DNA of 64,000 bases from IMG/VR virus record IMGVR_UViG_2890524856_000001, positions 1 through 64,000 of that record, one strand, 5' to 3'. A program made the position numbers and the translations under genes. Positions 3,165 to 58,973 of the stretch are shown here, one piece after another (the stretch's first letter is position 1; each line of letters begins with the position of its first letter). The notes beneath the pieces were generated by a model. That model worked only from the letters and a program-made list of their open reading frames with translations, ran no database searches and was not told the DNA's origin. The DNA is from a virus (Duplodnaviria > Caudoviricetes).

Positions 3165-3670
3165 GCAACCTTCAACAGCACATTGGCAATAAAACAGTAG
3201 GCACTGGAACCACGCCTGGCGCCTACCAATTTGATCGGTTAATCAAAGCATTACCGGTGACAAATCTAAATACAGCAAGAAAATCAGATGAATTGATTTC
3301 GGAGTTGCTTGCGAACGTCAACGAATATGCTCCAGAGACAGTAACAGCACTACTTGCATACGAAGCAGCCCAATATATTAAATCACTGGAAGAGGAAATT
3401 GCCAAATTAAACCGGAAATCAATCCACGGTTTAGAAATTACTGCCGCTCAGCTGCAAGAAGTGCTGGACTTTGTATTTGCCGATGCCGATGCACGAGATG
3501 ACCACGAAAGCAGCGCTCGAATAGCCTTCCTACCAGCCGAGTATGCCCCGATTGGCGATAACAACATACGGATGAAGCCGGGGCTTTACGCATGTGACGC
3601 AGAATATCCTGAGGAGGGCTGGATCCCACTTTTTGACGATGCTGATAACGATGACGGCGGTGCAGCATGA
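3161..3670 (+). CDS. Hypothetical phage protein
   Basis: 169-aa ORF coupled into the operon; ends in GGCGGTGCAGCATGA. Confidence 0.6.
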   Translation: MSNLQQHIGNKTVGTGTTPGAYQFDRLIKALPVTNLNTARKSDELISELLANVNEYAPETVTALLAYEAAQYIKSLEEEIAKLNRKSIHGLEITAAQLQEVLDFVFADADARDDHESSARIAFLPAEYAPIGDNNIRMKPGLYACDAEYPEEGWIPLFDDADNDDGGAA

Positions 3671-4317
3671 GCCAATTACCACAACGCGACGAAACCAAGC
3701 CAGCTGAACAGCAAGGACTGTTTCAAAAATTCATTGTTGCACGCACAGACGGCAAAGACGCGCCAGGGCAAAAGCATTGCGGGTGCGAATATTTTGTTCT
3801 GGACGTGAAACATGACCAACACGCAAAAGCGGCACTGGCAGCATATGCAATTGCGTGCGCGGAAAGCCATCCAGATTTAAGAAACGATTTGGTGCGACGT
3901 TATGCCCTGCCGCCGCCTGAAGTGGCACATAAACCATCCGGCTATTTTAAAGCAGATTTAAATGGCAATTTATTATGGGGGCAGGATTGCGTAAACGAAG
4001 AGGATGTTTTTTTCAATGGCATTGACGAAATATCCAGACCTTTCTTTATGGCACCGCAAGAATTAGTTAGCCTGGAAGTGGAAAACAGAAAATTGAAGCT
4101 TCGTTTAAATCGAAACGTTTCTTTACTTGCTAATGAAACTTTGCAGTCTGAAAAAGAAAGCCTTTTGCTGCAAATAGCCGAACTGCGCGAAGTGCTGGAG
4201 CTGGCAAAGAACGGACTGCAATGGTACCAGGATCAATTCCCGGAGGTTGCCAGCGAGACGGACTATGAAACTATGGAGCGCATCAATGCAGCGCTGGAAG
4301 GTGTTGAAAATGACTAA
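3667..4317 (+). CDS. Conserved phage hypothetical protein with coiled-coil C-terminus
   Basis: GLFQKFIVARTDG...CEYFVLD...HAKAALAAYA segment typical of phage accessory proteins. Confidence 0.65.
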   Translation: MSQLPQRDETKPAEQQGLFQKFIVARTDGKDAPGQKHCGCEYFVLDVKHDQHAKAALAAYAIACAESHPDLRNDLVRRYALPPPEVAHKPSGYFKADLNGNLLWGQDCVNEEDVFFNGIDEISRPFFMAPQELVSLEVENRKLKLRLNRNVSLLANETLQSEKESLLLQIAELREVLELAKNGLQWYQDQFPEVASETDYETMERINAALEGVEND

Positions 4318-20926: not shown

Positions 20927-21084
20927 AGTGGCACCTTTTTGATTGATTTCAGAGATCAACCACTCCAAACTCCAATTTGGGGTGGGAGACTGTACGAGGT
21001 TGGAGTTCTAGCCAAAAGGAAAACTAGCGAGCCTTACGACTCCCTCGCACAGCCCCCCATAGGTAACAGCTGCGCCACGCGAAA

Positions 21085-21951: not shown

Positions 21952-24900
21952 CTAGCCGCCGCGCCAATTCCCACCTATCCCACCGGTTGCGATATGCGCA
22001 ATGCCTCTATCTTTGATGTCTTGACCGATATCACCCTTATCAACTTTGACGCTCAGTGGACTTTGTTTTTCCGATCCATATATTTGCGTCATAACACTTG
22101 ACGACGGAGCCTCAGGAATTGCGCTGGCCTGTGCTGGCATTTTTGGCATTTCAGGAATGCTAGGCATGGCCGGCATAGAAGGGACGGCAACCGGTTGCGC
22201 GCTCAAAATTGGAGATTCCCCATAATTCGTAACGGCGCTATTCCCAATCTTTGTTGGAGCAACCTCATCATCGTCATCTTCATCTGGCTCATAGTAAGGA
22301 ATTGGAGCGAATGATCGTTTTGATACGTCAGAGGGCGGTAACGGCTCGCTGTATTTAGGCGCGGCACCTGGAAGAGATGGAGCGAACATTGCATCCTGCG
22401 ACATGGGGTCAATGCCTTTATCACTAATCTTGTCTGCAATGGACTCTCCTCCAAGTACCGGCGTATTTTGTGTTCCGTCTTTCTTTTTATATAACGATGC
22501 AAACTCAGAATTATCGTACGTCATCCCAAATCTCCGGACATCTTTTGGCGATTCTTTTGGCGCACTTACATCCGACACATCTGGAATTATCGCCCCTTGT
22601 TTAGCTAATGTAGCCGCAGTAGGTTGAATGGCGGCATCCAATGGAATTGCAGATTCAGGCGTAGATCCTTTATCGCTAGTAGTCACTCCTTCTGTAGATG
22701 CCTTCGAAAGAGATCCAGATGGGTATGACGCCAACTCAAGTAGCCGATCTTTTTCCTTACTAGCCCTAGCAAGAGTCCCCGCTCGTTGCTCTTTGCTAGA
22801 GCTTGCAAACAATACATCATTATTCTTTATTTTATAGTCTTGAATCGCAGAAACAATATCTGCGTCACTCATTTTTGCGAGATCCTTGTCACCCAAGGCC
22901 GACTTGACCATTGATACTGCACCAGTTTTTGATTTATCGCTTCCAGCGCCAAATTGAGTACTGGTTGACCAAATTGCATCTTTAACAGCAGAGCCACGAT
23001 CTGACAGATCGATACCTGATTTTTTAAGACCGCTCATTGCTGGATCATAATGAGTGCTTTTTATAAAATCATGCTGTGCAGATTCAAATTTTGGGTCAGT
23101 TTTAGCAACATCTTTCCACTTATCGCTAAATTCCTTCGTACCTGGCTTCAACCCTTTGAAGGTATCCCCATATGAAGTAGATGATAAAAATTTATCTACC
23201 GTACCAGCTTTCGAAGAGAGTTGATAGGTGCCGTATGAAACGCCACCATTGTCTCCGCGCCCAGTTGAAACAGCCCCGGCTCCGGCCTTTCCAGACTCAA
23301 ACATTTTTGATGTTTGCCCTAAAATCCAATTTCCAGAACTCCGTGCACCATCAACAATTGCGCTGCTAGCTGCGATTGCAGCCCTGCCGCCGCGAGTATT
23401 AGCGGCTGCGGCGACCGCTCCGTCAATTGCATCTTTGCCCTTCTCAATTATTGGAGCCGATGCCTCTTTAACTTGAGTCGCCTTTTCAATTACGGCATCT
23501 TTGACAATACCTACCTTTTTTGATGCTCCATCAACAATTTCTGAGGCCTTTTTCTTACCATCCTCGATAACCTTATCAATATCGAGGCCAAATTTATCTT
23601 TGAGGAACCCCTTGACCGCATCAATAACAACCCCGAATGTCTTACTGACGGTTTTCGAAACATCTTCGAAATAGTCATTGAATTTTTTGACGCCGGCGTC
23701 CCATGTACTCGAGATCCCCATAACAGCAGAGTTCCAGCCAGACGAAATCAGTTCTGTCATTGAATTCCAGGTCGACATTATTCGCTTCGGCATATCGGAC
23801 TTGCGTAGGTCATTGACCCATCCGCCGATCTCCTTACCTACGATTTCTCCGCCGACACTTCCTAGCCAACCACCAAGCAGACCGCCTATAACAGTGCCAA
23901 CACCAGGTAAGATAAAAGTGCCGATGGTCGCGCCAAGCGCGGCACCGCCAGCCATCCCGCCGACAGAACCTGCCGTGCCTGACACATTTTCTATATGCCT
24001 GTCCTTTTTCTGGTCATCAGTTAGCGTGGAGTCAGCTTCAGTCGCATTCGCATCCATCGCCATGCCGCCGAGAGTAAGCAACGTACCCAATATAGGGACT
24101 TTCTTCAGCAACTTCCCTGCACCACCAGCTAATCGCCCCAGCTTAGAAGCAGATTTGACTGCTACGCCGGCCTCCGCAGCAACTGCGCCCCCGGCTGCTG
24201 AAGAATTTGCGCCAATTTCAGCGGCCTTCCCTCCTACGCCTAAAGCATCTTTCGCACGTTCAACTAATCCCTTTTTCGGCGCGCTACCAAACGATGGAAT
24301 CAGTCCGCCTATTACAGGAACTCTCCTCAACAAGTTTAATAGCGGCGCTAAAAGCATTCCCAGGAAACTTCCAACGCCAGATGAACTATTACCGGCAGCG
24401 CCAAGCTTTGTGCGATCTCCAAGAGCGTCCAGCTTTTTCTGGATTGCCTTACCCTGATCTTCATCACCACGCCGAATGTCGGTGAGAGCGCCCCATATCT
24501 GCTGATACCATGCAAGCTTACGCTTCTCAATACGCAGGGACATATCAGAACCATTGTCAGTTCTAGCCGCTGCTGTGGAACTTACCCCTGCGGCGCCACT
24601 CCGGCCAAGTCGTATTGCCCCGCGTGCCATTGGAATTGCAATTTTTCCGACTGGAGCCAGTAAAGACTTCATCTCGTTCGCAGCGGCGATAGTCGGATCA
24701 AAGTCTTGGCTCATCATTGATTTGCCAGCATCTACAGCCATGACTGCAGCTGATTTAAGATGCTTCAACCCTCCGTTTGACGTGCCGCCGTCCGGATCCC
24801 CTACTTCATTGCGCTTTAAAAATCGGCCATTCGCCGCCCGGTCTATTTTCTCCAGCATCGACTTATTAGAGGCCGCCGACTTTGAAATTTCCTGCGCTAT

Positions 24901-44655: not shown

Positions 44656-47600
44656 TTAAACCTTCACGCAAATAATCATGTCGATGTAGCGAGGTTCCCA
44701 GTTCGTCTGTGACGATCCGTTGTCAGTGCCACCGGTATGGGAGTGACTAGCGGAGATGCCGTTCATCGTCATTCCTGTCGCTGTCGCAGCTGTCGTGCCA
44801 CCTCCGTTGTAAGTCGCATTCCCACCACCAACGCCGTTGATATCGCCGGAATAGTTCGGCATTTGCGTCACAAATGAACCACCTCTGGCGGGGGCATGGG
44901 CATGTCCAGGGTCATTCAGCCAATGGTTATGGTCGGAGGATTGCCACCCAGTTGTAAAGCCGTGCGTATGCGCTGGAACAACATTATTTATTACCGGGTT
45001 ATGAACGCCCCCAACGTTGCCACCTACCCAGTTGACAACGCGAAGAAGTCGGTTATCTGATTTATCTGAAACATCCTGCACCCAACCGGTAGGTGCAGAT
45101 GATTGCGCGAACGGCATTCGCGTCCCGGATGGGAAAATCCCCATGTCGTTGGTCAACTGGCTGAGTTTGTTCAGGTTGCCATCGTGCCATAGCTTGCGCC
45201 ATGCGCCCCAGCTGCTACCGTTATTTGCCTGGCGAACTGACAGCCCATCACCGAACGAAACCTGCACCGGTGTTCCACCGCCCGCGCTGCCAGATGACTC
45301 ATAGCCAACAACAGTTAATATGTAGCTATAGTTGTTGTTTGCACTGATAGGTGGGTTGTCAACTTTGTTAGATTCTTTGAATTCAATAGTTGCTGCGAAG
45401 TTTTGATAATTGTTTGGTGTCGCAGCATTTGCCCGCACATCCGGAATCAACCACGTCCCTCGATAGCCGCCACTGGCTGACAGACTGCCAGCGACTTGCA
45501 TTTTGTCGACACCGTTATCATTGCCCCCCAGTAGCAGACGGCCAGAAGGCGTAAGCGTCATCCATGCTTGTCCGGCAGTTCCCCAGCGCATTCCAATGCC
45601 ATTTTCTTGCATGAACTGCGCGTAACTACCTTTCATGTACTGTATATAACCATTACGCGTCCCGTCGTCATTGACAAATGCGACAAACGCATTGTCATTT
45701 CTAAGCCGAAGCGCTTCTGTAGCGCTAGACGAGACGGTACCATCAAAGCTTGCCGCGCCCGTATTGCTAATTGACGCTACGTTTTTTCCGCCATTGCCAA
45801 CGTTACGGAAAATCCAACCACGACCCGGATCACTCGTCATCGTGAAATAGGTAGCCCAGTCGTTGTTGACTGCCCCATACGTACCGAACGATCCAGTTTG
45901 AGCGAACATAATCCCGTATGACGGCTGAGAGTATGATCCAGTTGTGGCTACTGATGGATATAGATAAACACCCGCCCCTACACCATCTGTTTGATTAAGC
46001 CATAAGCTGCGCATATTAGCAGTACCGCTGCTATCCAGCTGGAGTACAGATAATGGCAAACCCGTAGTCGTGAGAGTTAAGTTGCCATCGTGCCAGATTG
46101 TGCGCCACGGGTTCCACGCACCGACATCACCATTTTGTGTACGGAACTTTAAAACCCCAGCTGGGTCACCATACGCAGAAACCATTTGGCACTGGTAATT
46201 GCTCGCTCCATTATTGCCAAGTGCGCCCAGCTGGCCGAAGTTAAAGAACGCTCCTGTTACGCCTGAACCCGCCGTGTTGTAGTCAAAGCCGTGTTCTGAA
46301 AACGCACTGTTGATGCTGGTTCCATCATCGGAGTGGTATCGCGTCCGCTTTGAAACAATCGGCACTTGGATGTCGGTGGTTACCTTCACCCATGGTTTCC
46401 AGGTATCCTGCTGTCGGCGGAAGTACATGGAGTCATCATTCCAAGGGAACGCGACTTGCGTATAACGAGTTCCGTAGCCAATCTCAATTGTTCGGTAATT
46501 ACCCGAAGCGAAGGGTGGTTTAGTGCCAGTGATGGCACCATCATAGTGATACAGACCTGACGGCTTTGTCACATCGAGATTCAATGCTTGGGTAGCACTG
46601 GTCAGGTTTGTTCCGGCCACATAGCCTGCCGCATGAAAGTTTGCTCCGCCGTATGTCCTAATCGTCCCCGGCTCAATCGCATAAATGCCTACGTTGTACG
46701 ACTCGCTGAACCAGCCTGCGTTACCTGTGGATCTAAACCAGCCGTCTGTACCATTTGTACGCGCCAACCCTCCAAGCGCTGTCGCAGCATCAGCTACCGC
46801 TACTCTCACACCAGCGTGGAAAATAGTATCGTTAAACCCTTTCAAGTACCAATTTGTACCATCCCACCAACTCTGTACATTGAAGGCATCCGGAGCCGTA
46901 TCGCTACGTTGCAAGCCTCGCGCCCTAGCCGCGCTGCCTGAAGCGGTAATGTAGCCAGAGTCATTCGCCAGCTGGCTATTATTTTTCAGGTTCTCGTTCG
47001 TCCAGACAGTTTTCCATGGTGTCCAGCTTGCGCTGTCCGTCTTGTTGCGGAATTGCATTCCTCCGCCGTGAGTGAAAACCTGCTGAACAATCCCTGTGCT
47101 ACCCCCACTGACAAATACTGTCATGCCAGTTGAATATCCGTGCATATCGACTACATATTCGCCCGGCGCTATAGCGCTATCTATGCTGGAAATATCAATA
47201 AAAGTAGCTGCTGTCGTTCGGTACCCGACATCATTTAGTAGCTGGCTAACATTTCGCAGATTTCCTGAGTGCCACAGCTCGTACCAACTGTTCCAAACCG
47301 TGTCGATACCCTTGCGGATCTTCATCTGAGGTAGGCCAAATCCATCATGGCCGGTTCCGCCAAAGGCTAACTGATAAGAAGCCCCACCGCCACCTATAGA
47401 TGCCCCCTGGAATGGTGAGACAGTCATTACTCCAGCGTAGTATCCACCCATGCTGGCGGAAGTTGCTGTGACGAAATCCCAGCGTGTGCTGTATGCCTGG
47501 CCGTTTGGCAAAATCGCGTTTGCATCACGTGCGCCGTCTGTGACAGTTGCGTACCTTGCTGAAGTTGCTGTACCCGCATTACCTGTAATGGCAATTGGTG

Positions 47601-54000: not shown

Positions 54001-54029
54001 CAAAAAAGCCTGCAACAATGCAGGCTTTT
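54001..54029 (-). terminator. Intrinsic terminator closing the 56.0-54.0 kb transcription unit
   Basis: AAAGCCTGCA-TTGT-TGCAGGCTTTTTTG on the minus strand. Confidence 0.85.
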
Positions 54030-54420
54030 CATTCAGGCTAGGCCATCCAATTCTATTCAGTTCCTAGGTTTTATCCATTCCCTAGGCGATCTCTGGTTTA
54101 TGTAACTAGCCGTACTCCAGCTGAATCGGTCTCGCAATATGCTCCGTTTCAGCAATACAGAGTTCCGGCCTGTTCCAATAATGCATATAGCTAAACAAGA
54201 GACCTTCAATTATTGCCGGGGAGAAGGCAACAATCAAAAAAAACCTCATCACTAATCTAAGCATTCATATCCTAAAAAAAATTTGCACGAATTAGGCTAG
54301 CCCCGAGTTACTAAGACCTTCGCACTGCTCCTCTTGACCCCAGATTTACCATGCAAGCTCATGGTGGAATATCACCTGCTTTCGCAGCCCTCGATCCGAG
54401 TACGAGGGGATTACCAACAA
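54030..54420 (-). ncRNA. Candidate structured ncRNA segment 2 (~390 nt, unclassified)
   Basis: No ORF of 60 aa or more; helices CCCTCG/CGAGGG, CTGC-GAAA-GCAG, ACCATG/CATGGT, ATTGTTGCC/GGCAATAAT, GGTCTC/GAGACC, CCTAGG/CCTAGG; GU pairs favour the minus strand. Confidence 0.6.
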
Positions 54421-54423
54421 ATT

Positions 54424-54918
54424 TTATTGCTGACCCTGCTTTGAAGCAGAGTTCAATTTATCCAAGTCAGCCTTAGCATCTGCAGCTTGTTTATCAGCGG
54501 CGGCTTTCGCCTCCTCAGCCTGCTTCAGCTTGAGCGCAGCCATTTCTTGGCGCTGCTTTTCAACGGCGGCAGCATCTGCCTTTACGCTCAATTCCATTGC
54601 AAGTGCTTTTTCATCGCGCTCTTTTGCCGACGACAAATAAAGGGAGGCGCATGCCTGATGAAACTCAGCATGTGTCATTGTTTTTCCTGTTTCCTCACCC
54701 GTTTCCTGGTTAATTAACGGGAATTTCTTTTGCGGGTCAACGAATTGGACGATGATACTGTCCACTTGGTTGCCTATCGATTTATCACCCAAAACTACGC
54801 GATCTTCCTCGAGGAAGTGAACAGTTGGAGTTTGACCAAAGCTGTTTTCCGCTACGAATCGCATGCAGCGACGATATGAAACGCCACTGAGGTTTGTTTG
54901 TCGATAATTTTGAGGCAT
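54424..54918 (-). CDS. Small phage protein with Ala/Lys-rich coiled-coil tail, between the two structured segments
   Basis: AAGG RBS; Y.R...N..GQTPTVHFLEE...FPLIN..TGE.TG motif typical of small phage tail-region proteins. Confidence 0.75.
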   Translation of the reverse strand: MPQNYRQTNLSGVSYRRCMRFVAENSFGQTPTVHFLEEDRVVLGDKSIGNQVDSIIVQFVDPQKKFPLINQETGEETGKTMTHAEFHQACASLYLSSAKERDEKALAMELSVKADAAAVEKQRQEMAALKLKQAEEAKAAADKQAADAKADLDKLNSASKQGQQ

Positions 54919-54929
54919 ATAACACCTTA

Positions 54930-56033
54930 TCTGATTGGGTTAAGTTTATAAAATCAGGCTTCTACTTCTATGTGGCGGCCGGCACTGCCTTCTTCCGGCA
55001 TGCCGTGCAGTAAGGTCAGTGCGCCAGCTTTTGCGCCATCCCCGGCAACGACTTGTTTTCTGCTTATTACGTAGCGCATCAGCCTGCGCAATTCCCCCAC
55101 ACAGAAGCGGCCTCTGGTCGTGACGATCCCAGAACCACTAGAGCCAGTGGACACCGTGCACAGTGCTACCCACCTCCCTTGCGCAGTACGCCTATTCGCC
55201 GCCGCTTCTGTGTGGTTCCTGACTCTTACCCGGCCAGGTTAGGTGTGGCGCGCAATACTCTTAATGACTATGAGTTACTAGCCTCCTGCCGGTCGCCAGA
55301 CACCGGCTCTTATCCCTTCGCTTTCAGAGGCAATCCAGTCTTGCGACGCGCTAGGGGTCTACTACTTACAACACCACACAGAAGCGGGTAGGGCGCTACT
55401 CCTACTATCCTCAAAGGCCGACAAAGCCTTTACCTGCATGCGGGTCGGGATCGATACCGATTGCCGCCAATTTTTACTTCGATCTACTGTGCTTTTTCAG
55501 GTGAGCGCAGCAACTTTGCTCTGCGTGTCTGCTTTCCACGCCTCCGCTTTTGTGTGGCCTCTCCTTTAATACTTCGCTGGCGGAGAGCTACCAGCCGGAT
55601 TTTTCGGACACCGGAGTCGGAACGGGGCAGTTGTGAGGCTCCCTGCTCAGGGCGAGTCATTTTGTTCATCCACTTTCTTTTCTGCTGCAATTCTGGCGCT
55701 ACAACAGAGTCATGCTTTCGCCTTCACCAACAAGTTAGGGGGTCTGGACTTGATACCAGCTTGTCGGATTACTGCGATACCGAGTCGCGTGTGGTTGTCG
55801 TCACATTTACCCACAACTTCATTTCCTCTCCCTAGTTCACAGCTCGCACCAAAACTGCTAAGTGATTTGCGAGTCGAATATTTCTGCATCTAGTTCTGCA
55901 CTTCCTTCAGTGCTGCCCCCTAACTTCTTGGCTCCGGCCTTTCTGCCGGATCGGCTACAGCAATTGTTTTTTCTGCTGATTCAAGTAGCTTTTCTCAGAG
56001 TTCCAACGCGCTCAACAAAGATGCGCAATCCAT
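54930..56033 (-). ncRNA. Candidate large structured ncRNA segment 1 (~1.1 kb, unclassified)
   Basis: Own sigma70 promoter, no credible ORF, 11+4-bp long-range helix (55916-55931 with 55727-55742), many hairpins with GU pairs and GNRA loops, five 14-nt inverted repeats. Confidence 0.7.
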
Positions 56034-56039
56034 TTGAGA

Positions 56040-56069
56040 ATTATATTAGCCATTTATGATTATTTGCAA
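56040..56069 (-). promoter_or_regulatory. Sigma70 promoter with an operator-like site, driving the candidate ncRNA
   Basis: TTGCAA-N18-TATAAT; spacer holds TTAGCC-ATTTAT-GATTAT (56046-56063, + strand). Confidence 0.75.
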
Positions 56070-56482
56070 CTAAATTTTTCCGCTTTTAACTTATTAATGA
56101 CGAACCTGACAATTGCATGTCGAACGCACTCGTCTTTGGACGAAAAATTCATGTGCTTTAACGTAACTTGACCTAAGTTCTTTTCGGATTGAGAGCTCAC
56201 AGACACGCTAATTGCGCCCACACCTACAGTCAAGAAATGTTCCGTTTGAAGCGAAATAGCATCATGGGTAAATCTAGTCCAAGATGGCATCATGCAATGC
56301 GGCATAAATTCTGCAAAAGAACAGTTGGCAGGAGGCGCGCCGAAGAAGAAACCTCCCTTAAATTGAATGTCCGTCCATCCAATTAATTCCGCCAACTCCA
56401 TGTTTAGCGCATCAATCTCGTAAGATGCGCTTTCTATCGGAGCTACAACAACACTTTGCTCACACATAAGACCCTCTCTCAA
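56060..56482 (-). CDS. Hypothetical phage protein
   Basis: LAELIGW...PSWTR...AISL pattern; start may be ATG 56467. Confidence 0.6.
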   Translation of the reverse strand: MREGLMCEQSVVVAPIESASYEIDALNMELAELIGWTDIQFKGGFFFGAPPANCSFAEFMPHCMMPSWTRFTHDAISLQTEHFLTVGVGAISVSVSSQSEKNLGQVTLKHMNFSSKDECVRHAIVRFVINKLKAEKFSCK

Positions 56483-56582
56483 TCTTTCGATCCTCGATTA
56501 ATCTTCGGACACTAACGCGACGGCGATTCGCTTCCCTGGCCTCGCCGGCGCTCATAGCCGGATTAGTCATCAAGTCGCTCAT
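56460..56582 (-). CDS. Small ORF (40 aa, MSDLMTNPAMSAGEAREANRRR...)
   Basis: Read by hand; overlaps the start of the next gene. Confidence 0.4.
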   Translation of the reverse strand: MSDLMTNPAMSAGEAREANRRRVSVRRLIEDRKIERGSYV

Positions 56583-56683
56583 CTTTGATGTTGACTTAAC
56601 CTCTTCAAACGAGTGAGTTTTCTTGTATTTTTGCATTTTTAAACCCGTATTTGCATATTTAAGAGCAAATAAATACCAGCACT

Positions 56684-57870: not shown

Positions 57871-58404
57871 TTAAGAATTCACTTCATCCATACGAAGGCC
57901 GCTTTGAACTGCGGCGATAATTTTGCATAGGTACTCATAATCCGGATTCGGGCGCGATGGCATTGAGTGCCACCAATCTTCACCGAAAATAGGTGCCAAA
58001 ATGCTTGAGTGAGTCCACAGCTCTACGTTTGTGAGCCCGTCGATATCGTCCAAGCTCTCCCATAGTTGACGAGCGGCATTTTTTCTTATGTCGCGCTCGC
58101 GGCGCATTTTGCATATTTCTTTCTTCGCAGCAGGAACAATCGCATCGCCATCTTCGATTGTTGCTGATATCTCTGTATCGAGATTCTTGGCTAGATAGTG
58201 CTCATCAAAACTGCAGAAGAACTGGGCAATCGTTCGCTCCCCCATGCACCCCCATGAGGCAGTCCACGCTTTCGTATAGCAGCAGATAACAATGCGGCCT
58301 TTGCCTGGCTCGGTGTCCTCCAGCATCACATCGATAGGGTCAAGTCGTACCACTTCTGTGATTTTGAGTTTCTTGATCGTTGATGTCGTGACATTGACCT
58401 TCAT
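57871..58404 (-). CDS. Conserved phage hypothetical protein
   Basis: LDPIDVMLED..PGKGRIVICCY.KAWTASWG.MG motif. Confidence 0.7.
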   Translation of the reverse strand: MKVNVTTSTIKKLKITEVVRLDPIDVMLEDTEPGKGRIVICCYTKAWTASWGCMGERTIAQFFCSFDEHYLAKNLDTEISATIEDGDAIVPAAKKEICKMRRERDIRKNAARQLWESLDDIDGLTNVELWTHSSILAPIFGEDWWHSMPSRPNPDYEYLCKIIAAVQSGLRMDEVNS

Positions 58405-58973
58405 GCTTCGACCTCATCAAGATAAATGCGGCGGACTGCACGGGCTAAGTACTCTCTGGACTTCTGGTTGCTGCTCTGGTTACCATCGTGGAAGCGCTGC
58501 ATAAAGGCATAATCGTCGTTGTGGGCGCTCGGTGATCTGCTCCAGTAAGAATCTGCGTCAAATTGCAAAGAGCAATTTGCCAGCAACAACGAAAATTCTC
58601 GACGTGTGGGTAGCTCAAATCCAATGGAATTAGCCCATTCCATTGCGTCCGCCCAGCGCAGTTTTGAATTCGGCTTTTGCGGTACCAGCACCAAAAAGTA
58701 AGGCCGATCATCCAAAATAAGCCCAGCATTCACTTCGCCAGGCTGAAGCAGACCTGAAATTTCAGCCAGCAGCCCTAAAACTGATCTGGTATTCCACATG
58801 GACGTAACGGCATCCAATGTGTCATGGATCATGCCGCCACAACACTCGATTGTGAAAGAGCCAGGATGATCGGGCATTTTGAACCCACCCAATTGCATTG
58901 AATGGCGGTGAGGCTCTATGTGGTTAATGATTGGCTCTTTGCCACAGTGCGGGCAAGGTTTTAATTTATTCAT
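58401..58973 (-). CDS. Lar-like zinc-ribbon N-terminus fused to a DUF1566/Lcl-C-like domain
   Basis: LKPCPHCG...C...WNTR, then WADAM.W...LPTRRE...YWS...ARAVRR. Confidence 0.7.
   Translation of the reverse strand: MNKLKPCPHCGKEPIINHIEPHRHSMQLGGFKMPDHPGSFTIECCGGMIHDTLDAVTSMWNTRSVLGLLAEISGLLQPGEVNAGLILDDRPYFLVLVPQKPNSKLRWADAMEWANSIGFELPTRREFSLLLANCSLQFDADSYWSRSPSAHNDDYAFMQRFHDGNQSSNQKSREYLARAVRRIYLDEVEA

What the first reader, a model, noticed from the sequence alone, without database searches (positions are those of the whole stretch)
54930..56033. Candidate giant (~1.1 kb) structured phage ncRNA under repressor control
Seen: TTGCAA-N18-TATAAT promoter with an operator, then ~1.1 kb with no credible gene in an otherwise dense genome. 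Minus-strand helices: CCAA-G-AAGTTAGGGGG / CCCCCTAACTT-G-TTGG closing a ~175-nt domain; CTCGCA/TGCGAG; CCGGC/GCCGG; CTGTTGTA/TGCAGCAG (2 GU); AAAGGC/GCCTTT; GTAGG/CCTAC; GCCGGT/ACCGGC; CCACT/AGTGG; GCACTG-A-CCTT/AAGGCAGTGC. GU wobbles favour the transcribed strand. Known: GOLLD and ROOL are 600-800-nt phage-associated RNAs of unknown function, described mainly outside Proteobacteria. Inference: a larger or unrelated member of this class. I cannot assign it to a family. Best candidate for an undescribed system in the window.
Basis: partly seen in the sequence, partly recalled or inferred. Interest (0 to 1): 0.88.

Follow-up and report, generated by a model that had tools for sequence, protein, structure and literature searches.

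The report
Phage leader array of RNA hairpin cassettes
The 1.1-kb gene-free stretch is not one giant RNA: it is the untranslated leader of an early prophage operon, built from separate folded RNA hairpin cassettes, and one cassette belongs to a very widespread family that I found in no RNA catalogue but also in phages lambda and P1.

Summary
Window 54919-56059 has no credible gene, is GC-rich, lies downstream of a TTGCAA-N18-TATAAT promoter on the minus strand, and contains the listed helices.

The interpretation, a single giant GOLLD/ROOL-like RNA, is not supported. There is no Rfam match even at E<=10. Only two sub-domains fold better than shuffles. Relatives conserve only short blocks, and the number and order of modules differ between them.

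The stretch is a tandem array of hairpin cassettes on the minus strand. Cassette A (55074-55238) is a full member of a family with four parts: a small 5' hairpin, a long hairpin with a covarying closing stem (CACA[A/C]C...GUGUGG), an NUGAAU-type linker, and a 3' hairpin GCGCA-GGCUGA-UGCGC. My covariance model also finds this family in these places:
- four times in the C1-controlled ban-operon leader of phage P1;
- directly after tR' in lambda;
- in pL leaders of mEp460 and Stx2 phages;
- in E. coli K-12 prophage e14;
- in more than 120 IMG/VR contigs.

Cassette B shares A's closing stem and follows a conserved pseudoknot-like block. Domain C is specific to this lineage.

The most likely role (inferred, not shown) is endonuclease processing sites that cut the early leader into stable RNAs. 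This scan has met the same family before on other DNA (word matches in 183 windows of 171 genomes). No RNA data exist for this strain.

The parts
56040..56069 (-). Sigma-70-type promoter: TTGCAA (56069-56064), 18-nt spacer, TATAAT (56045-56040). The -10 region overlaps ATGGCTAATATAATTC (56053-56038), which resembles a P1 C1 operator. The transcription start is expected near 56033.
   Evidence: The likeness to the operator is about 10 of 16 positions and is compared with a consensus recalled from memory. Repressor binding was not tested.
55932..56033 (-). 5' end of the leader, with a small hairpin CCGGC-AGAAAG-GCCGG (55949-55934).
   Evidence: The z-score of -0.42 is not significant. No homologue was found.
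55727..55931 (-). Domain C: a 205-nt domain closed by CCAAGAAGUUAGGGGG / CCCCCUAACUUGUUGG. It is specific to this lineage.
   Evidence: Inverted repeat I3. z = -3.45. It is absent from the G256 homologue, and no other match was found.
55558..55618 (-). Conserved pseudoknot-like block: hairpins CCGG...CCGG and CUGG-UAGCUCUCCG-CCAG. The loop CUCUCC can pair with the downstream GGAGAG. The block takes the place of the small 5' hairpin in front of cassette B.
   Evidence: It is 84% identical to G256 and present in two IMG/VR contigs. Alignment A2 shows a shifted but kept 6-bp loop-to-tail pairing. With only three sequences, the pseudoknot is a candidate only.
55374..55557 (-). Cassette B: a long hairpin closed by CCACACAAAAGCGG / CCGCUUCUGUGUGG, the same 14-mer as in cassette A, with one A-C mismatch on this strand. 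Its apical part is about 156 nt. It has no GGCUGA tail hairpin.
   Evidence: G256 has the same stem after the same block. The model scores it only 3.4 bits because the tail is missing.
55256..55373 (-). Linker with local hairpins (GCCGGU-8 nt-ACCGGC and others).
   Evidence: z = -0.72, not significant.
55218..55238 (-). Cassette A, small 5' hairpin H1: CCUGGCCGGGUAAGAGUCAGG. It lies within a 41-nt block that is conserved in two other Undibacterium genomes.
   Evidence: 93-97% identity over 30-41 nt. 81 of 127 family units have a stable small hairpin at this place.
55097..55215 (-). Cassette A, long hairpin H2: a perfect 15-bp closing stem (CCACACAGAAGCGGC / GCCGCUUCUGUGUGG) and a 89-nt apical part.
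   Evidence: Inverted repeat I1. The model R1 match spans 55072-55206, 27.8 bits, E 2.8e-8. Family-wide covariation of this stem was counted.
55074..55096 (-). Cassette A, linker GGGAAUU (55096-55090) and tail hairpin H3, GCGCA-GGCUGA-UGCGC (55089-55074).
   Evidence: The 16-mer is the exact form seen in most family members. In other phages the stems covary while the loop GGCUGA is kept.
54919..55073 (-). 3' part of the leader: hairpin GCACUGACCUU...AAGGCAGUGC, a degenerate fifth copy of the 14-mer (54962-54975), then the ribosome-binding site AAGGUG and the ATG at 54918 of the 164-aa orphan ORF.
   Evidence: z = -0.28. No terminator-like site lies between the promoter and the ORF; the first strong one on this strand is at 54030-54003.

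Best explanation
Window 54919-56059, read on the minus strand, is the long untranslated leader of an early transcription unit of a distant P1-like prophage in an Undibacterium chromosome. The unit runs from the promoter at 56069-56040, through the leader and a 164-aa orphan ORF, to a terminator near 54003.

The leader is a tandem array of separate folded RNA cassettes rather than one large fold.

Cassette A is a complete member of a widespread phage leader-hairpin family that Rfam does not hold. The family unit has four parts:
- a small 5' hairpin;
- a long hairpin whose 15-20-bp closing stem covaries and whose apical part varies freely (rarely a real tRNA, sometimes a T-arm-like hairpin, mostly unrelated sequence);
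- a single-stranded NUGAAU-type linker;
- a 3' hairpin with the conserved loop GGCUGA.

Cassette B is a second type: a pseudoknot-like block followed by the same closing stem. Domain C is lineage-specific.

Likely mechanism (inferred, not shown): after repression is lifted, the leader is transcribed. Host endoribonucleases then cut it. A double-strand-specific enzyme such as RNase III would cut in the two-turn closing stems, and RNase E would cut in the A/U-rich linker. The window's linker GGGA|AUU fits the RN|WUU rule. The cuts would release the hairpin modules as stable small RNAs and leave the downstream message starting with a protective hairpin (H3). The structured modules would also keep 1.1 kb of untranslated RNA safe from Rho. 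What the released apical parts do is unknown.
For: Shown here:
1. Family membership. Model R1 was built from 72 units. It hits the window once (55072-55206, minus strand, 27.8 bits, E 2.8e-8), and this is the only copy in the genome.
2. The same model hits other phages:
   - P1, four times, all in the ban leader between Pban/Op72 and tciA: 66, 63, 41 and 21 bits (annotation, sequence);
   - mEp460: 85 bits;
   - an Stx2a phage: 78 bits;
   - G256: 65 and 53 bits;
   - G242: 50 bits;
   - lambda 44787-44862: 37 bits;
   - K-12 e14: 47 bits.
3. Structure. 16 of the 18 closing-stem pairs show changes on both sides. None of 500 shuffles reaches the observed values. 86.7% of cells are paired, against 30-51% when the partners are slid. 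In a sample not selected on H3, its stem has 10 variants, several doubly compensated, around an unchanged GGCUGA loop. P1 has GCACA...UGUGC.
4. Strand.
   - G-U/U-G cells number 120, against 34 A-C/C-A, in the sense that equals the window's minus strand.
   - In all 17 units with a tRNA gene within 400 nt, those tRNA genes are on that strand.
   - In P1, mEp460 and the window the modules are co-oriented with the operon.
5. Modularity. The flanking proteins are unrelated between G000, G256, G242 and the IMG/VR contigs, and the number of modules varies.
6. Position. 19 of 127 units start right after a T-run terminator; in lambda the hairpin lies between Q/orf-64 and S and, by coordinates recalled from memory, directly after tR'. 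Some units abut tRNA ends.

From the literature:
- A 193-nt RNA (sRNA-17) is made from the intergenic region of an mEp460-type prophage, and its deletion raises the downstream genes yfdP and yfdR (PMC7719688).
- The title of Daniels et al. 1988 (Virology 167:568, cited in PMC7547250) reports RNase III processing sites in lambda late RNA. The positions were not readable here.
Against: There is no RNA evidence for this window: no RNA run is on record. No cleavage site has been mapped for any family member that I could read, so the nuclease step is inference from shape and position.

The near-invariance of the GGCUGA loop and the linker from Beta- to Gammaproteobacteria is more than a plain RNase III or RNase E site would need. 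It hints at a specific unknown partner.

Cassette B carries an A-C mismatch on the minus strand that would be G-U on the plus strand.

Only cassette A scores with the model. Domain C and the 5' leader have no homologues, so their status rests on folding alone.

The window's position in the phage genome is not syntenic with P1 ban. The neighbouring baseplate gene matches P1 bplA, and there is no ban, tci or tRNA gene.

CRISPRi knock-down of the P1 features trnT, plp, upl, tciA-C and ban gave no plaque defect (PMC10695390), so any role is conditional.
Confidence: 0.6

Rival explanations
1. The cassettes are scaffolds that present trans-acting cargo. After release, the variable apical parts would act on the host: as tRNA or tRNA-like decoys against anticodon nucleases or retron-type defences, as sRNA-like regulators, or as sponges. 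The conserved GGCUGA hairpin and UGGUGAAU linker would recruit a conserved host factor. This does not exclude the processing model; it adds a function.
For: - The cargo is a true tRNA in 1 of 127 units and has a T-arm-like hairpin in 11 of 127. P1 modules carry GGUUCGAAUCC-type T-arms.
- Identical arms carry unrelated cargo.
- Modules sit in RNA-rich leaders next to tRNAs, IsrJ and a dicF-like region.
- Loss of sRNA-17 changes host gene expression.
- The K-12 clone called ymfH lies beside the e14 R1 match and covers a second, unscored hairpin downstream of it. It was a trigger of the retron-Sen2 toxin (bioRxiv 10.1101/2020.06.22.160242; coordinates).
Against: Most cargo shows no recognisable family, and the window's cargo has no tRNA signal. 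Free variation of the apex is also what a site whose function lies only in the lower stem would show. No target was identified.
Confidence: 0.22
2. One giant (about 1.1 kb) structured RNA with a single tertiary fold, an unrecognised relative of GOLLD, ROOL or OLE.
For: The stretch is continuous, ORF-free and GC-rich, has one promoter and no internal terminator. It contains many local helices.
Against: - No Rfam hit at E<=10.
- Conservation is limited to modules that occur singly and in other orders elsewhere.
- Five of seven segments fold no better than shuffles.
- The G256 homologue lacks 430 nt of it.
Confidence: 0.05
3. A DNA-level element. The alternating 14-bp repeats and conserved 24-mer would be protein-binding or recombination sites: cassette boundaries that drive mosaic exchange, single-strand hairpins, or an origin or partition site.
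For: - There are four exact or near-exact copies of a 14-mer in alternating orientation.
- Identical arms flank different inserts, and the flanking genes differ.
- L012 and L013 differ by a rearrangement next to the modules.
- One stem mismatch favours the plus strand.
Against: - The inner halves of the arms covary rather than being conserved.
- The G-U bias is 120 to 34 for one strand, which duplex DNA would not show.
- Orientation relative to tRNAs and operons is fixed.
- No iteron array, AT-rich region or nearby recombinase or initiator was seen.
- Single-stranded DNA hairpins remain formally possible.
Confidence: 0.07
4. A transcription-elongation element. The modules would act on RNA polymerase or Rho, either as put-like RNA antiterminators or simply as a structured shield against Rho, so that the early operon is read through.
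For: The modules sit in early leaders of the N-less lambdoid phages examined (no N gene is annotated in the mEp460 and Stx2a loci) and in the P1 ban leader. A long untranslated leader needs protection from Rho.
Against: In lambda, and in 19 of 127 units, the module lies directly downstream of a terminator rather than upstream of it. It is far longer than the ~70-nt two-stem put RNA (PMC9378689). It occurs several times in tandem and abuts tRNAs.
Confidence: 0.06

Closest known systems
Leader of the phage P1 ban operon (NC_005856, about 68.7-70.2 kb): Pban/Op72, dicF-like region, trnA, trnT, region annotated as plp/upl, tciABC, trnI, ban
   Same: Both are in P1-type phages. Both have a sigma-70 promoter overlapped by a repressor-operator-type sequence, followed by more than 1 kb without a credible gene. 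Both contain the same hairpin family: four R1 hits in P1 and one full hit here.
   Different: P1 also carries three tRNA genes, a dicF-like region and the tci and ban genes. The window has none of these, carries a pseudoknot-type cassette and a unique 205-nt domain instead, and sits elsewhere in the genome. As far as I could find, P1's modules are not annotated as RNA; they lie antisense to the ORFs plp and upl.
Phage lambda late leader hairpin 44787-44862, just after tR' (6S RNA terminator)
   Same: The long hairpin has near-consensus arms, CACAACAGGUAAGAGCAUUG...CAGUGCUCUUUCCGUUGUG, in an untranslated operon leader.
   Different: Lambda has only the long hairpin and a CUGAAUU linker, without the GGCUGA tail hairpin. 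It is in the late operon, not the early one. RNase III sites in lambda late RNA are reported by title only (Daniels 1988); I could not check whether they coincide with this hairpin.
sRNA-17 of E. coli K1 RS218 (PMC7719688), from an mEp460-type prophage intergenic region
   Same: It comes from the same kind of place, the leader between the repressor gene and the early-left genes, and mEp460 gives the best R1 score of 85 bits. It is experimental proof that such a leader gives a stable ~190-nt RNA.
   Different: It was described as a single ArcA-regulated trans-acting sRNA. No family, structure conservation or processing was reported. I did not map its exact overlap with the module.
GOLLD (RF01998) and ROOL (RF03087) large phage-associated RNAs
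   Same: Both are phage-borne, non-coding, structured and of unknown function.
   Different: There is no sequence or structure match. Those are single conserved folds of 600-800 nt, while this is an array of 120-250-nt modules that occur independently.
RNase III/RNase E processing stems of rRNA and tRNA operons and of T7/lambda early RNAs; T4 stable RNAs C and D in the tRNA cluster
   Same: A roughly two-turn stem with small internal loops encloses a stable RNA and is followed by an A/U-rich single strand. The modules are co-located with phage tRNA genes. This is a resemblance of shape and place (from general knowledge).
   Different: There is no sequence relation, and cleavage has not been shown for this family. 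The conserved GGCUGA hairpin has no counterpart in those sites.

Membership tests
GOLLD / ROOL / HEARO / OLE / raiA (large structured RNAs in Rfam) | Significant covariance-model match | tested here: not met
   cmscan of the whole window at gathering scores finds only C4 at 20978-21064. cmscan of 54400-56600 at E<=10 gives four chance-level hits and none to these families.
GOLLD / ROOL / HEARO / OLE / raiA (large structured RNAs in Rfam) | The whole several-hundred-nt fold is conserved as one unit in homologues | tested here: not met
   Homologues share only 30-76-nt blocks and single modules. Module number and order differ, and the flanks are unrelated.
   Window 55097-55215 has a perfect 15-bp stem. 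The R1 hit is 27.8 bits, E 2.8e-8. The family stem shows double changes in 16 of 18 pairs, and 0 of 500 shuffles reach the observed values.
   Window 55096-55074 reads GGGAAUU-GCGCAGGCUGAUGCGC. In a sample anchored only on the 5' arm, about two thirds of 97 units have NUGAA and 33 have the GGCUGA hairpin. Cassette B lacks this tail.
   Window 55238-55218 is this hairpin, and the block is conserved in G256 and G242. 81 of 127 units have such a hairpin.
   The window's genes are on the minus strand. Neighbouring tRNA genes are on that strand in all 17 units that have one within 400 nt. G-U cells outnumber A-C cells 120 to 34.
   No RNA run holds the window.
tRNA / tRNA-like RNA | Cloverleaf or T-arm detectable by ARAGORN or RF00005 | tested here: not met
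   ARAGORN finds 0 genes in the window. There is no RF00005 hit at E<=10 in 54400-56600. Elsewhere in the family, 1 of 127 units has a true tRNA and 11 of 127 have a T-arm-like hairpin.
P1 ban-operon leader | C1-operator-controlled promoter | tested here: inconclusive
   The promoter is confirmed. The -10 region resembles the C1 operator at only about 10 of 16 positions, with one look-alike elsewhere in the window.
P1 ban-operon leader | tRNA genes, dicF-like region, and tci and ban genes downstream | tested here: not met
   There are no tRNAs and no DicF hit. The downstream ORF is an orphan with no family.
HK022 put antiterminator RNA | About 70 nt with two stems that binds the RNAP beta' zinc domain and acts upstream of terminators | not testable with these tools
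   No model or sequence of put was available. Size and the position after terminators argue against membership.

The most novel reading that the evidence does not exclude
The cassette would be a universal phage 'RNA display and release' scaffold. The near-invariant UGGUGAAU linker and GGCUGA hairpin would be read by one conserved host factor, or would pair with tRNA 3' ACCA ends through UGGU. The freely exchangeable apical parts would be a fast-evolving RNA arsenal (decoys, sponges, defence triggers or blockers) expressed at the moment of derepression. In effect this would be an RNA counterpart of phage accessory-gene cassettes, present even in lambda and P1 yet never described as a system.
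Probability: 0.15. Interest if true: 0.85.

Novelty: new variant of a known kind. Interest (0 to 1): 0.55.

Why it matters
If the reading is right, the long 'empty' leaders of early and late operons in many temperate phages, including the textbook phages lambda and P1 and the K-12 prophage e14, contain a shared structural RNA element. This element has no Rfam entry and is partly hidden under doubtful ORF annotations (P1 plp and upl, K-12 ymfH). A 16-24-nt motif is conserved almost letter for letter between phages of Beta- and Gammaproteobacteria, which points to a conserved host partner that is still unnamed.

For this window the result is more modest. It corrects a 'giant RNA' reading into a modular array. 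It extends the family to a betaproteobacterial P1-like prophage. It adds a second cassette type (pseudoknot block plus the same stem) and an orphan 205-nt domain.

Tried and rejected
- BLASTN of the gap against the phage and plasmid collections found no match.
- Flanking proteins (164 aa and 140 aa) have no relatives in IMG/VR. The 164-aa ORF has none among 5.8 billion proteins, so synteny could not be used to collect homologues.
- Pattern GTGTGGTTCCTGACTCTTAC in IMG/VR gave 0 hits.
- RNAalifold on the raw MAFFT alignment A1 recovered only the tail hairpin, because the variable apex was misaligned. I therefore supplied the structure myself.
- Public reads: no RNA holder is listed for the window. 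The only full holder is a DNA run that may be the source sample.
- Pas sRNA and STnc100: only a sub-threshold STnc100 match (33 bits) lies just 3' of one P1 module, and nothing matches in the window.
- boxA/nut likeness of the consensus arm (UGCUCUUU) was rejected, because that segment is paired and covaries.
- Integron attC likeness (AAC...GTT) was rejected, because the window's stems lack it and the cargo lies inside the hairpin.
- Y RNA (YrlA): only a weak hit over the P1 tRNAs.
- The P1 genome paper and Daniels 1988 could not be read.
- Complex prediction, structure prediction and fold search were not relevant.
Full report
**1. What is in the window**

The window is a prophage in a 4.3-Mb chromosome (G000 contig 12). 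The host genus is Undibacterium: contig C23 of the same-genus genome G256 matches in number and length (76,028 bases) the record titled Undibacterium sp. SXout7W NODE_23.

The phage is a distant relative of P1.
- It has a C4 antisense RNA.
- It has a BplA-like baseplate protein, 27% identical to P1 BplA and 44% to Xanthomonas phage Rb1.
- Earlier first-stage notes mention DarA and DarB (not checked by me).

Between the minus-strand genes 54424-54918 and 56060-56482 lie 1141 bases without a credible gene. GC there is raised, at 0.53-0.59. A TTGCAA-18-TATAAT promoter sits at 56069-56040 on the minus strand. No terminator-like site follows before the 164-aa ORF; the first good one is at 54030-54003. 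The stretch is therefore a 1.1-kb 5' leader of a roughly 2-kb unit.

**2. Check of the observation**

The most striking feature is a 14-mer, CCACACAGAAGCGG, in four copies of alternating orientation. These copies close two long hairpins.

Folding energies support local structure only.

| Segment | z-score, minus strand |
|---|---|
| Domain C (55727-55931) | -3.45 |
| Cassette A | -2.06 |
| Other segments | not significant |

The minus strand folds slightly better than the plus strand, -378.5 against -363.3 kcal/mol.

The 'operator' is only a likeness: about 10 of 16 positions match the P1 C1 operator as I recall it. One look-alike of the promoter region lies near 27.78 kb.

**3. Relatives change the picture**

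BLAST-level searches in the host's family found only short collinear blocks in two other Undibacterium genomes.

Reading the G256 locus showed a 1.2-kb gene-free stretch built from four long hairpins. Their stems start CCACAC and end GTGTGG, and the inner halves differ from the window's in a compensatory way. Each hairpin is flanked by the same short motifs.

A pattern made from the tail motif (plus-strand form GCATCAGCCTGCGCA-N3-8-CCACA) hit 88 stretches in the species-level genome collection. By reading the sequences beside the hits, a large part of these are chance matches in coding DNA. The true hits are in Enterobacterales, Aeromonas and Oxalobacteraceae.

BLAST of one unit found 172 phage records. 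Among them is P1, where the match lies in the C1-controlled ban-operon leader and is antisense to the annotated ORF plp.

**4. The family**

Read in RNA sense, a unit consists of:
- a small hairpin, present in 81 of 127 units; in 19 of 127 a T-run terminator comes directly before the unit instead;
- a long hairpin with a median span of 88 nt and a range of 63-165 nt, whose closing stem of about 18-20 bp has a bulged A and a 1x1 internal loop;
- a linker, G-UGAAU in most units;
- a tail hairpin GCGCA-GGCUGA-UGCGC.

On an alignment of 72 diverse units with the structure given by me:
- 16 of 18 stem pairs show changes on both sides;
- none of 500 shuffles reaches any of the five observed measures;
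- 86.7% of cells pair, against 30-51% when the partners are slid.

To avoid circularity for the tail, I drew a second sample anchored only on the 5' arm. Of its 97 units, 33 have the GGCUGA hairpin. Its stem comes in 10 variants, for example GCGUA/UACGU, ACGCA/UGCGU, GGCGG/CCGUC and GCACA/UGUGC. About two thirds of the units keep NUGAA after the stem.

The apical part is highly variable. It is a true tRNA in 1 of 127 units and carries a T-arm-like hairpin in 11 of 127. Otherwise it is unrelated sequence.

**5. Strand and level**

- G-U cells outnumber A-C cells 120 to 34 in the sense that corresponds to the window's minus strand.
- In all 17 units with a tRNA gene within 400 nt, those tRNA genes lie on that strand.
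- In P1, mEp460, the Stx2a phage and the window, the modules point the same way as the operon.

This argues for function as RNA (or, formally, as one DNA strand) and against a duplex-DNA site.

**6. Model search**

The covariance model R1 gave the following hits.

| Source | Place | Bits |
|---|---|---|
| Window (only copy in the genome) | 55072-55206, minus strand | 27.8 (E 2.8e-8) |
| P1 ban leader | four places between Pban and tciA | 66, 63, 41, 21 |
| mEp460 | pL leader, downstream of the cI-like gene | 85 |
| Stx2a phage | pL leader, downstream of the cI-like gene | 78 |
| G256 | two places | 65, 53 |
| G242 | one place | 50 |
| Lambda | 44787-44862, long hairpin only, directly after tR' | 37 |
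| E. coli K-12 prophage e14 | 1201354-1201453, minus strand, beside the doubtful ORF ymfH | 47 |

In the host's own family, 8 of 151 genomes have a match. That patchiness is what one expects of prophage cargo.

**7. Anatomy of the window's leader (minus strand)**

- 56033-55932: 5' end of the leader.
- 55931-55727: domain C, with no homologue.
- 55618-55558: a pseudoknot-like block shared with G256 and two IMG/VR contigs.
- 55557-55374: cassette B, with the same stem as cassette A and no tail hairpin.
- 55373-55256: linker.
- 55238-55074: cassette A (small hairpin, long hairpin, linker, tail hairpin).
- 55073-54919: 3' part, ending in the ribosome-binding site and start codon of an orphan ORF.

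The two cassettes share the same 14-mer stem. I read this as a recent copy or conversion, not as a switch, because in G256 neighbouring modules have different stems.

**8. Mechanism**

Shown: a modular, conserved, strand-specific RNA-type structure that lies in operon leaders, often right after terminators or next to tRNAs.

Inferred: the two-turn stems and the A/U-rich linker are endonuclease sites (RNase III-type and RNase E-type). They would cut the leader into stable pieces and leave the downstream message capped by the tail hairpin.

Indirect support:
- A 193-nt RNA is made from the mEp460-type leader, and its deletion raises the downstream genes (PMC7719688).
- The title of Daniels et al. 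1988 reports RNase III sites in lambda late RNA.

Against a plain processing role, the GGCUGA loop and the linker are conserved more strictly than such sites need. The P1 region is also dispensable for plaque formation (PMC10695390). I give the modular-cassette identification about 0.85 and the processing mechanism about 0.4. The stated overall confidence is 0.6.

**9. Comparison, novelty and earlier notes**

This is not GOLLD, ROOL, a tRNA or any other Rfam family. It works most like the processing stems of stable-RNA operons and phage early RNAs. By membership it belongs to the family modelled here as R1.

I found no catalogue entry or paper that treats this family as a family. sRNA-17 and, possibly, the lambda RNase III sites are single described instances.

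Earlier follow-ups in this scan reached similar views on other DNA. I used them as leads: lambda and sRNA-17 were then checked here.

Noticed in passing
window 20978-21064 (-): C4 antisense RNA (RF01695, 67.6 bits). This is the only Rfam match in the window at gathering score. It implies a P1/P7-type c4-ant immunity module in this betaproteobacterial prophage.
   Followed up: no
L224 (phage P1 NC_005856) 3172-3741, record 69472-70041: The annotated P1 ORFs plp and upl lie antisense to three high-scoring hairpin modules of the ban leader. They are probably not genes. CRISPRi found both non-essential (PMC10695390).
   Followed up: partly
L228/L229 (E. coli K-12 MG1655 1201069-1201453, prophage e14): K-12 has one module, with the tail variant UGCG-GCUCAG-CGCA, plus a second long hairpin (ACAAAACAGAGAAGAG...CUCUUCUCUGUUUUGUGG). 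They lie beside and under the doubtful ORF ymfH. A ymfH clone was reported as a trigger of the retron-Sen2 toxin (bioRxiv 10.1101/2020.06.22.160242), so the active agent could be this RNA rather than a protein.
   Followed up: partly
L225 (lambda) 24788-24863, record 44787-44862 (+): Phage lambda carries a near-consensus long hairpin of the family between Q/orf-64 and S. By coordinates recalled from memory, it lies directly after the 6S RNA terminator tR'. It has no GGCUGA tail hairpin.
   Followed up: partly
L012 3560-4400 versus L013 6260-7940: Two IMG/VR contigs from related samples carry the same modules and a zinc-finger-like gene in opposite orientation. The junction lies at AAATCTGCTT, next to genes made of short tandem peptide repeats. 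This is either an inversion or an assembly chimera.
   Followed up: no
L017 3517-3593 (+): An IsrJ sRNA gene (RF01393, 58.9 bits) ends in a terminator that abuts a module. The same terminator-then-module junction recurs in several other loci.
   Followed up: no
window 54003-54420 (-): After the 164-aa orphan ORF come about 390 nt without a good ORF, then a strong terminator at 54030-54003. Another first-stage note flags this as a second structured segment. I did not examine it.
   Followed up: no
window 54424-54918 (-): The ORF served by this leader (164 aa, coiled-coil-like C-terminus) has no relative at all among 5.8 billion clustered proteins, and no Pfam or PHROG family.
   Followed up: yes
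window 58401-58973 (-): An upstream early gene combines a Lar-like restriction-alleviation N-terminus with an Lcl_C-like C-terminus. Both matches fall just below the Pfam cut-offs.
   Followed up: no
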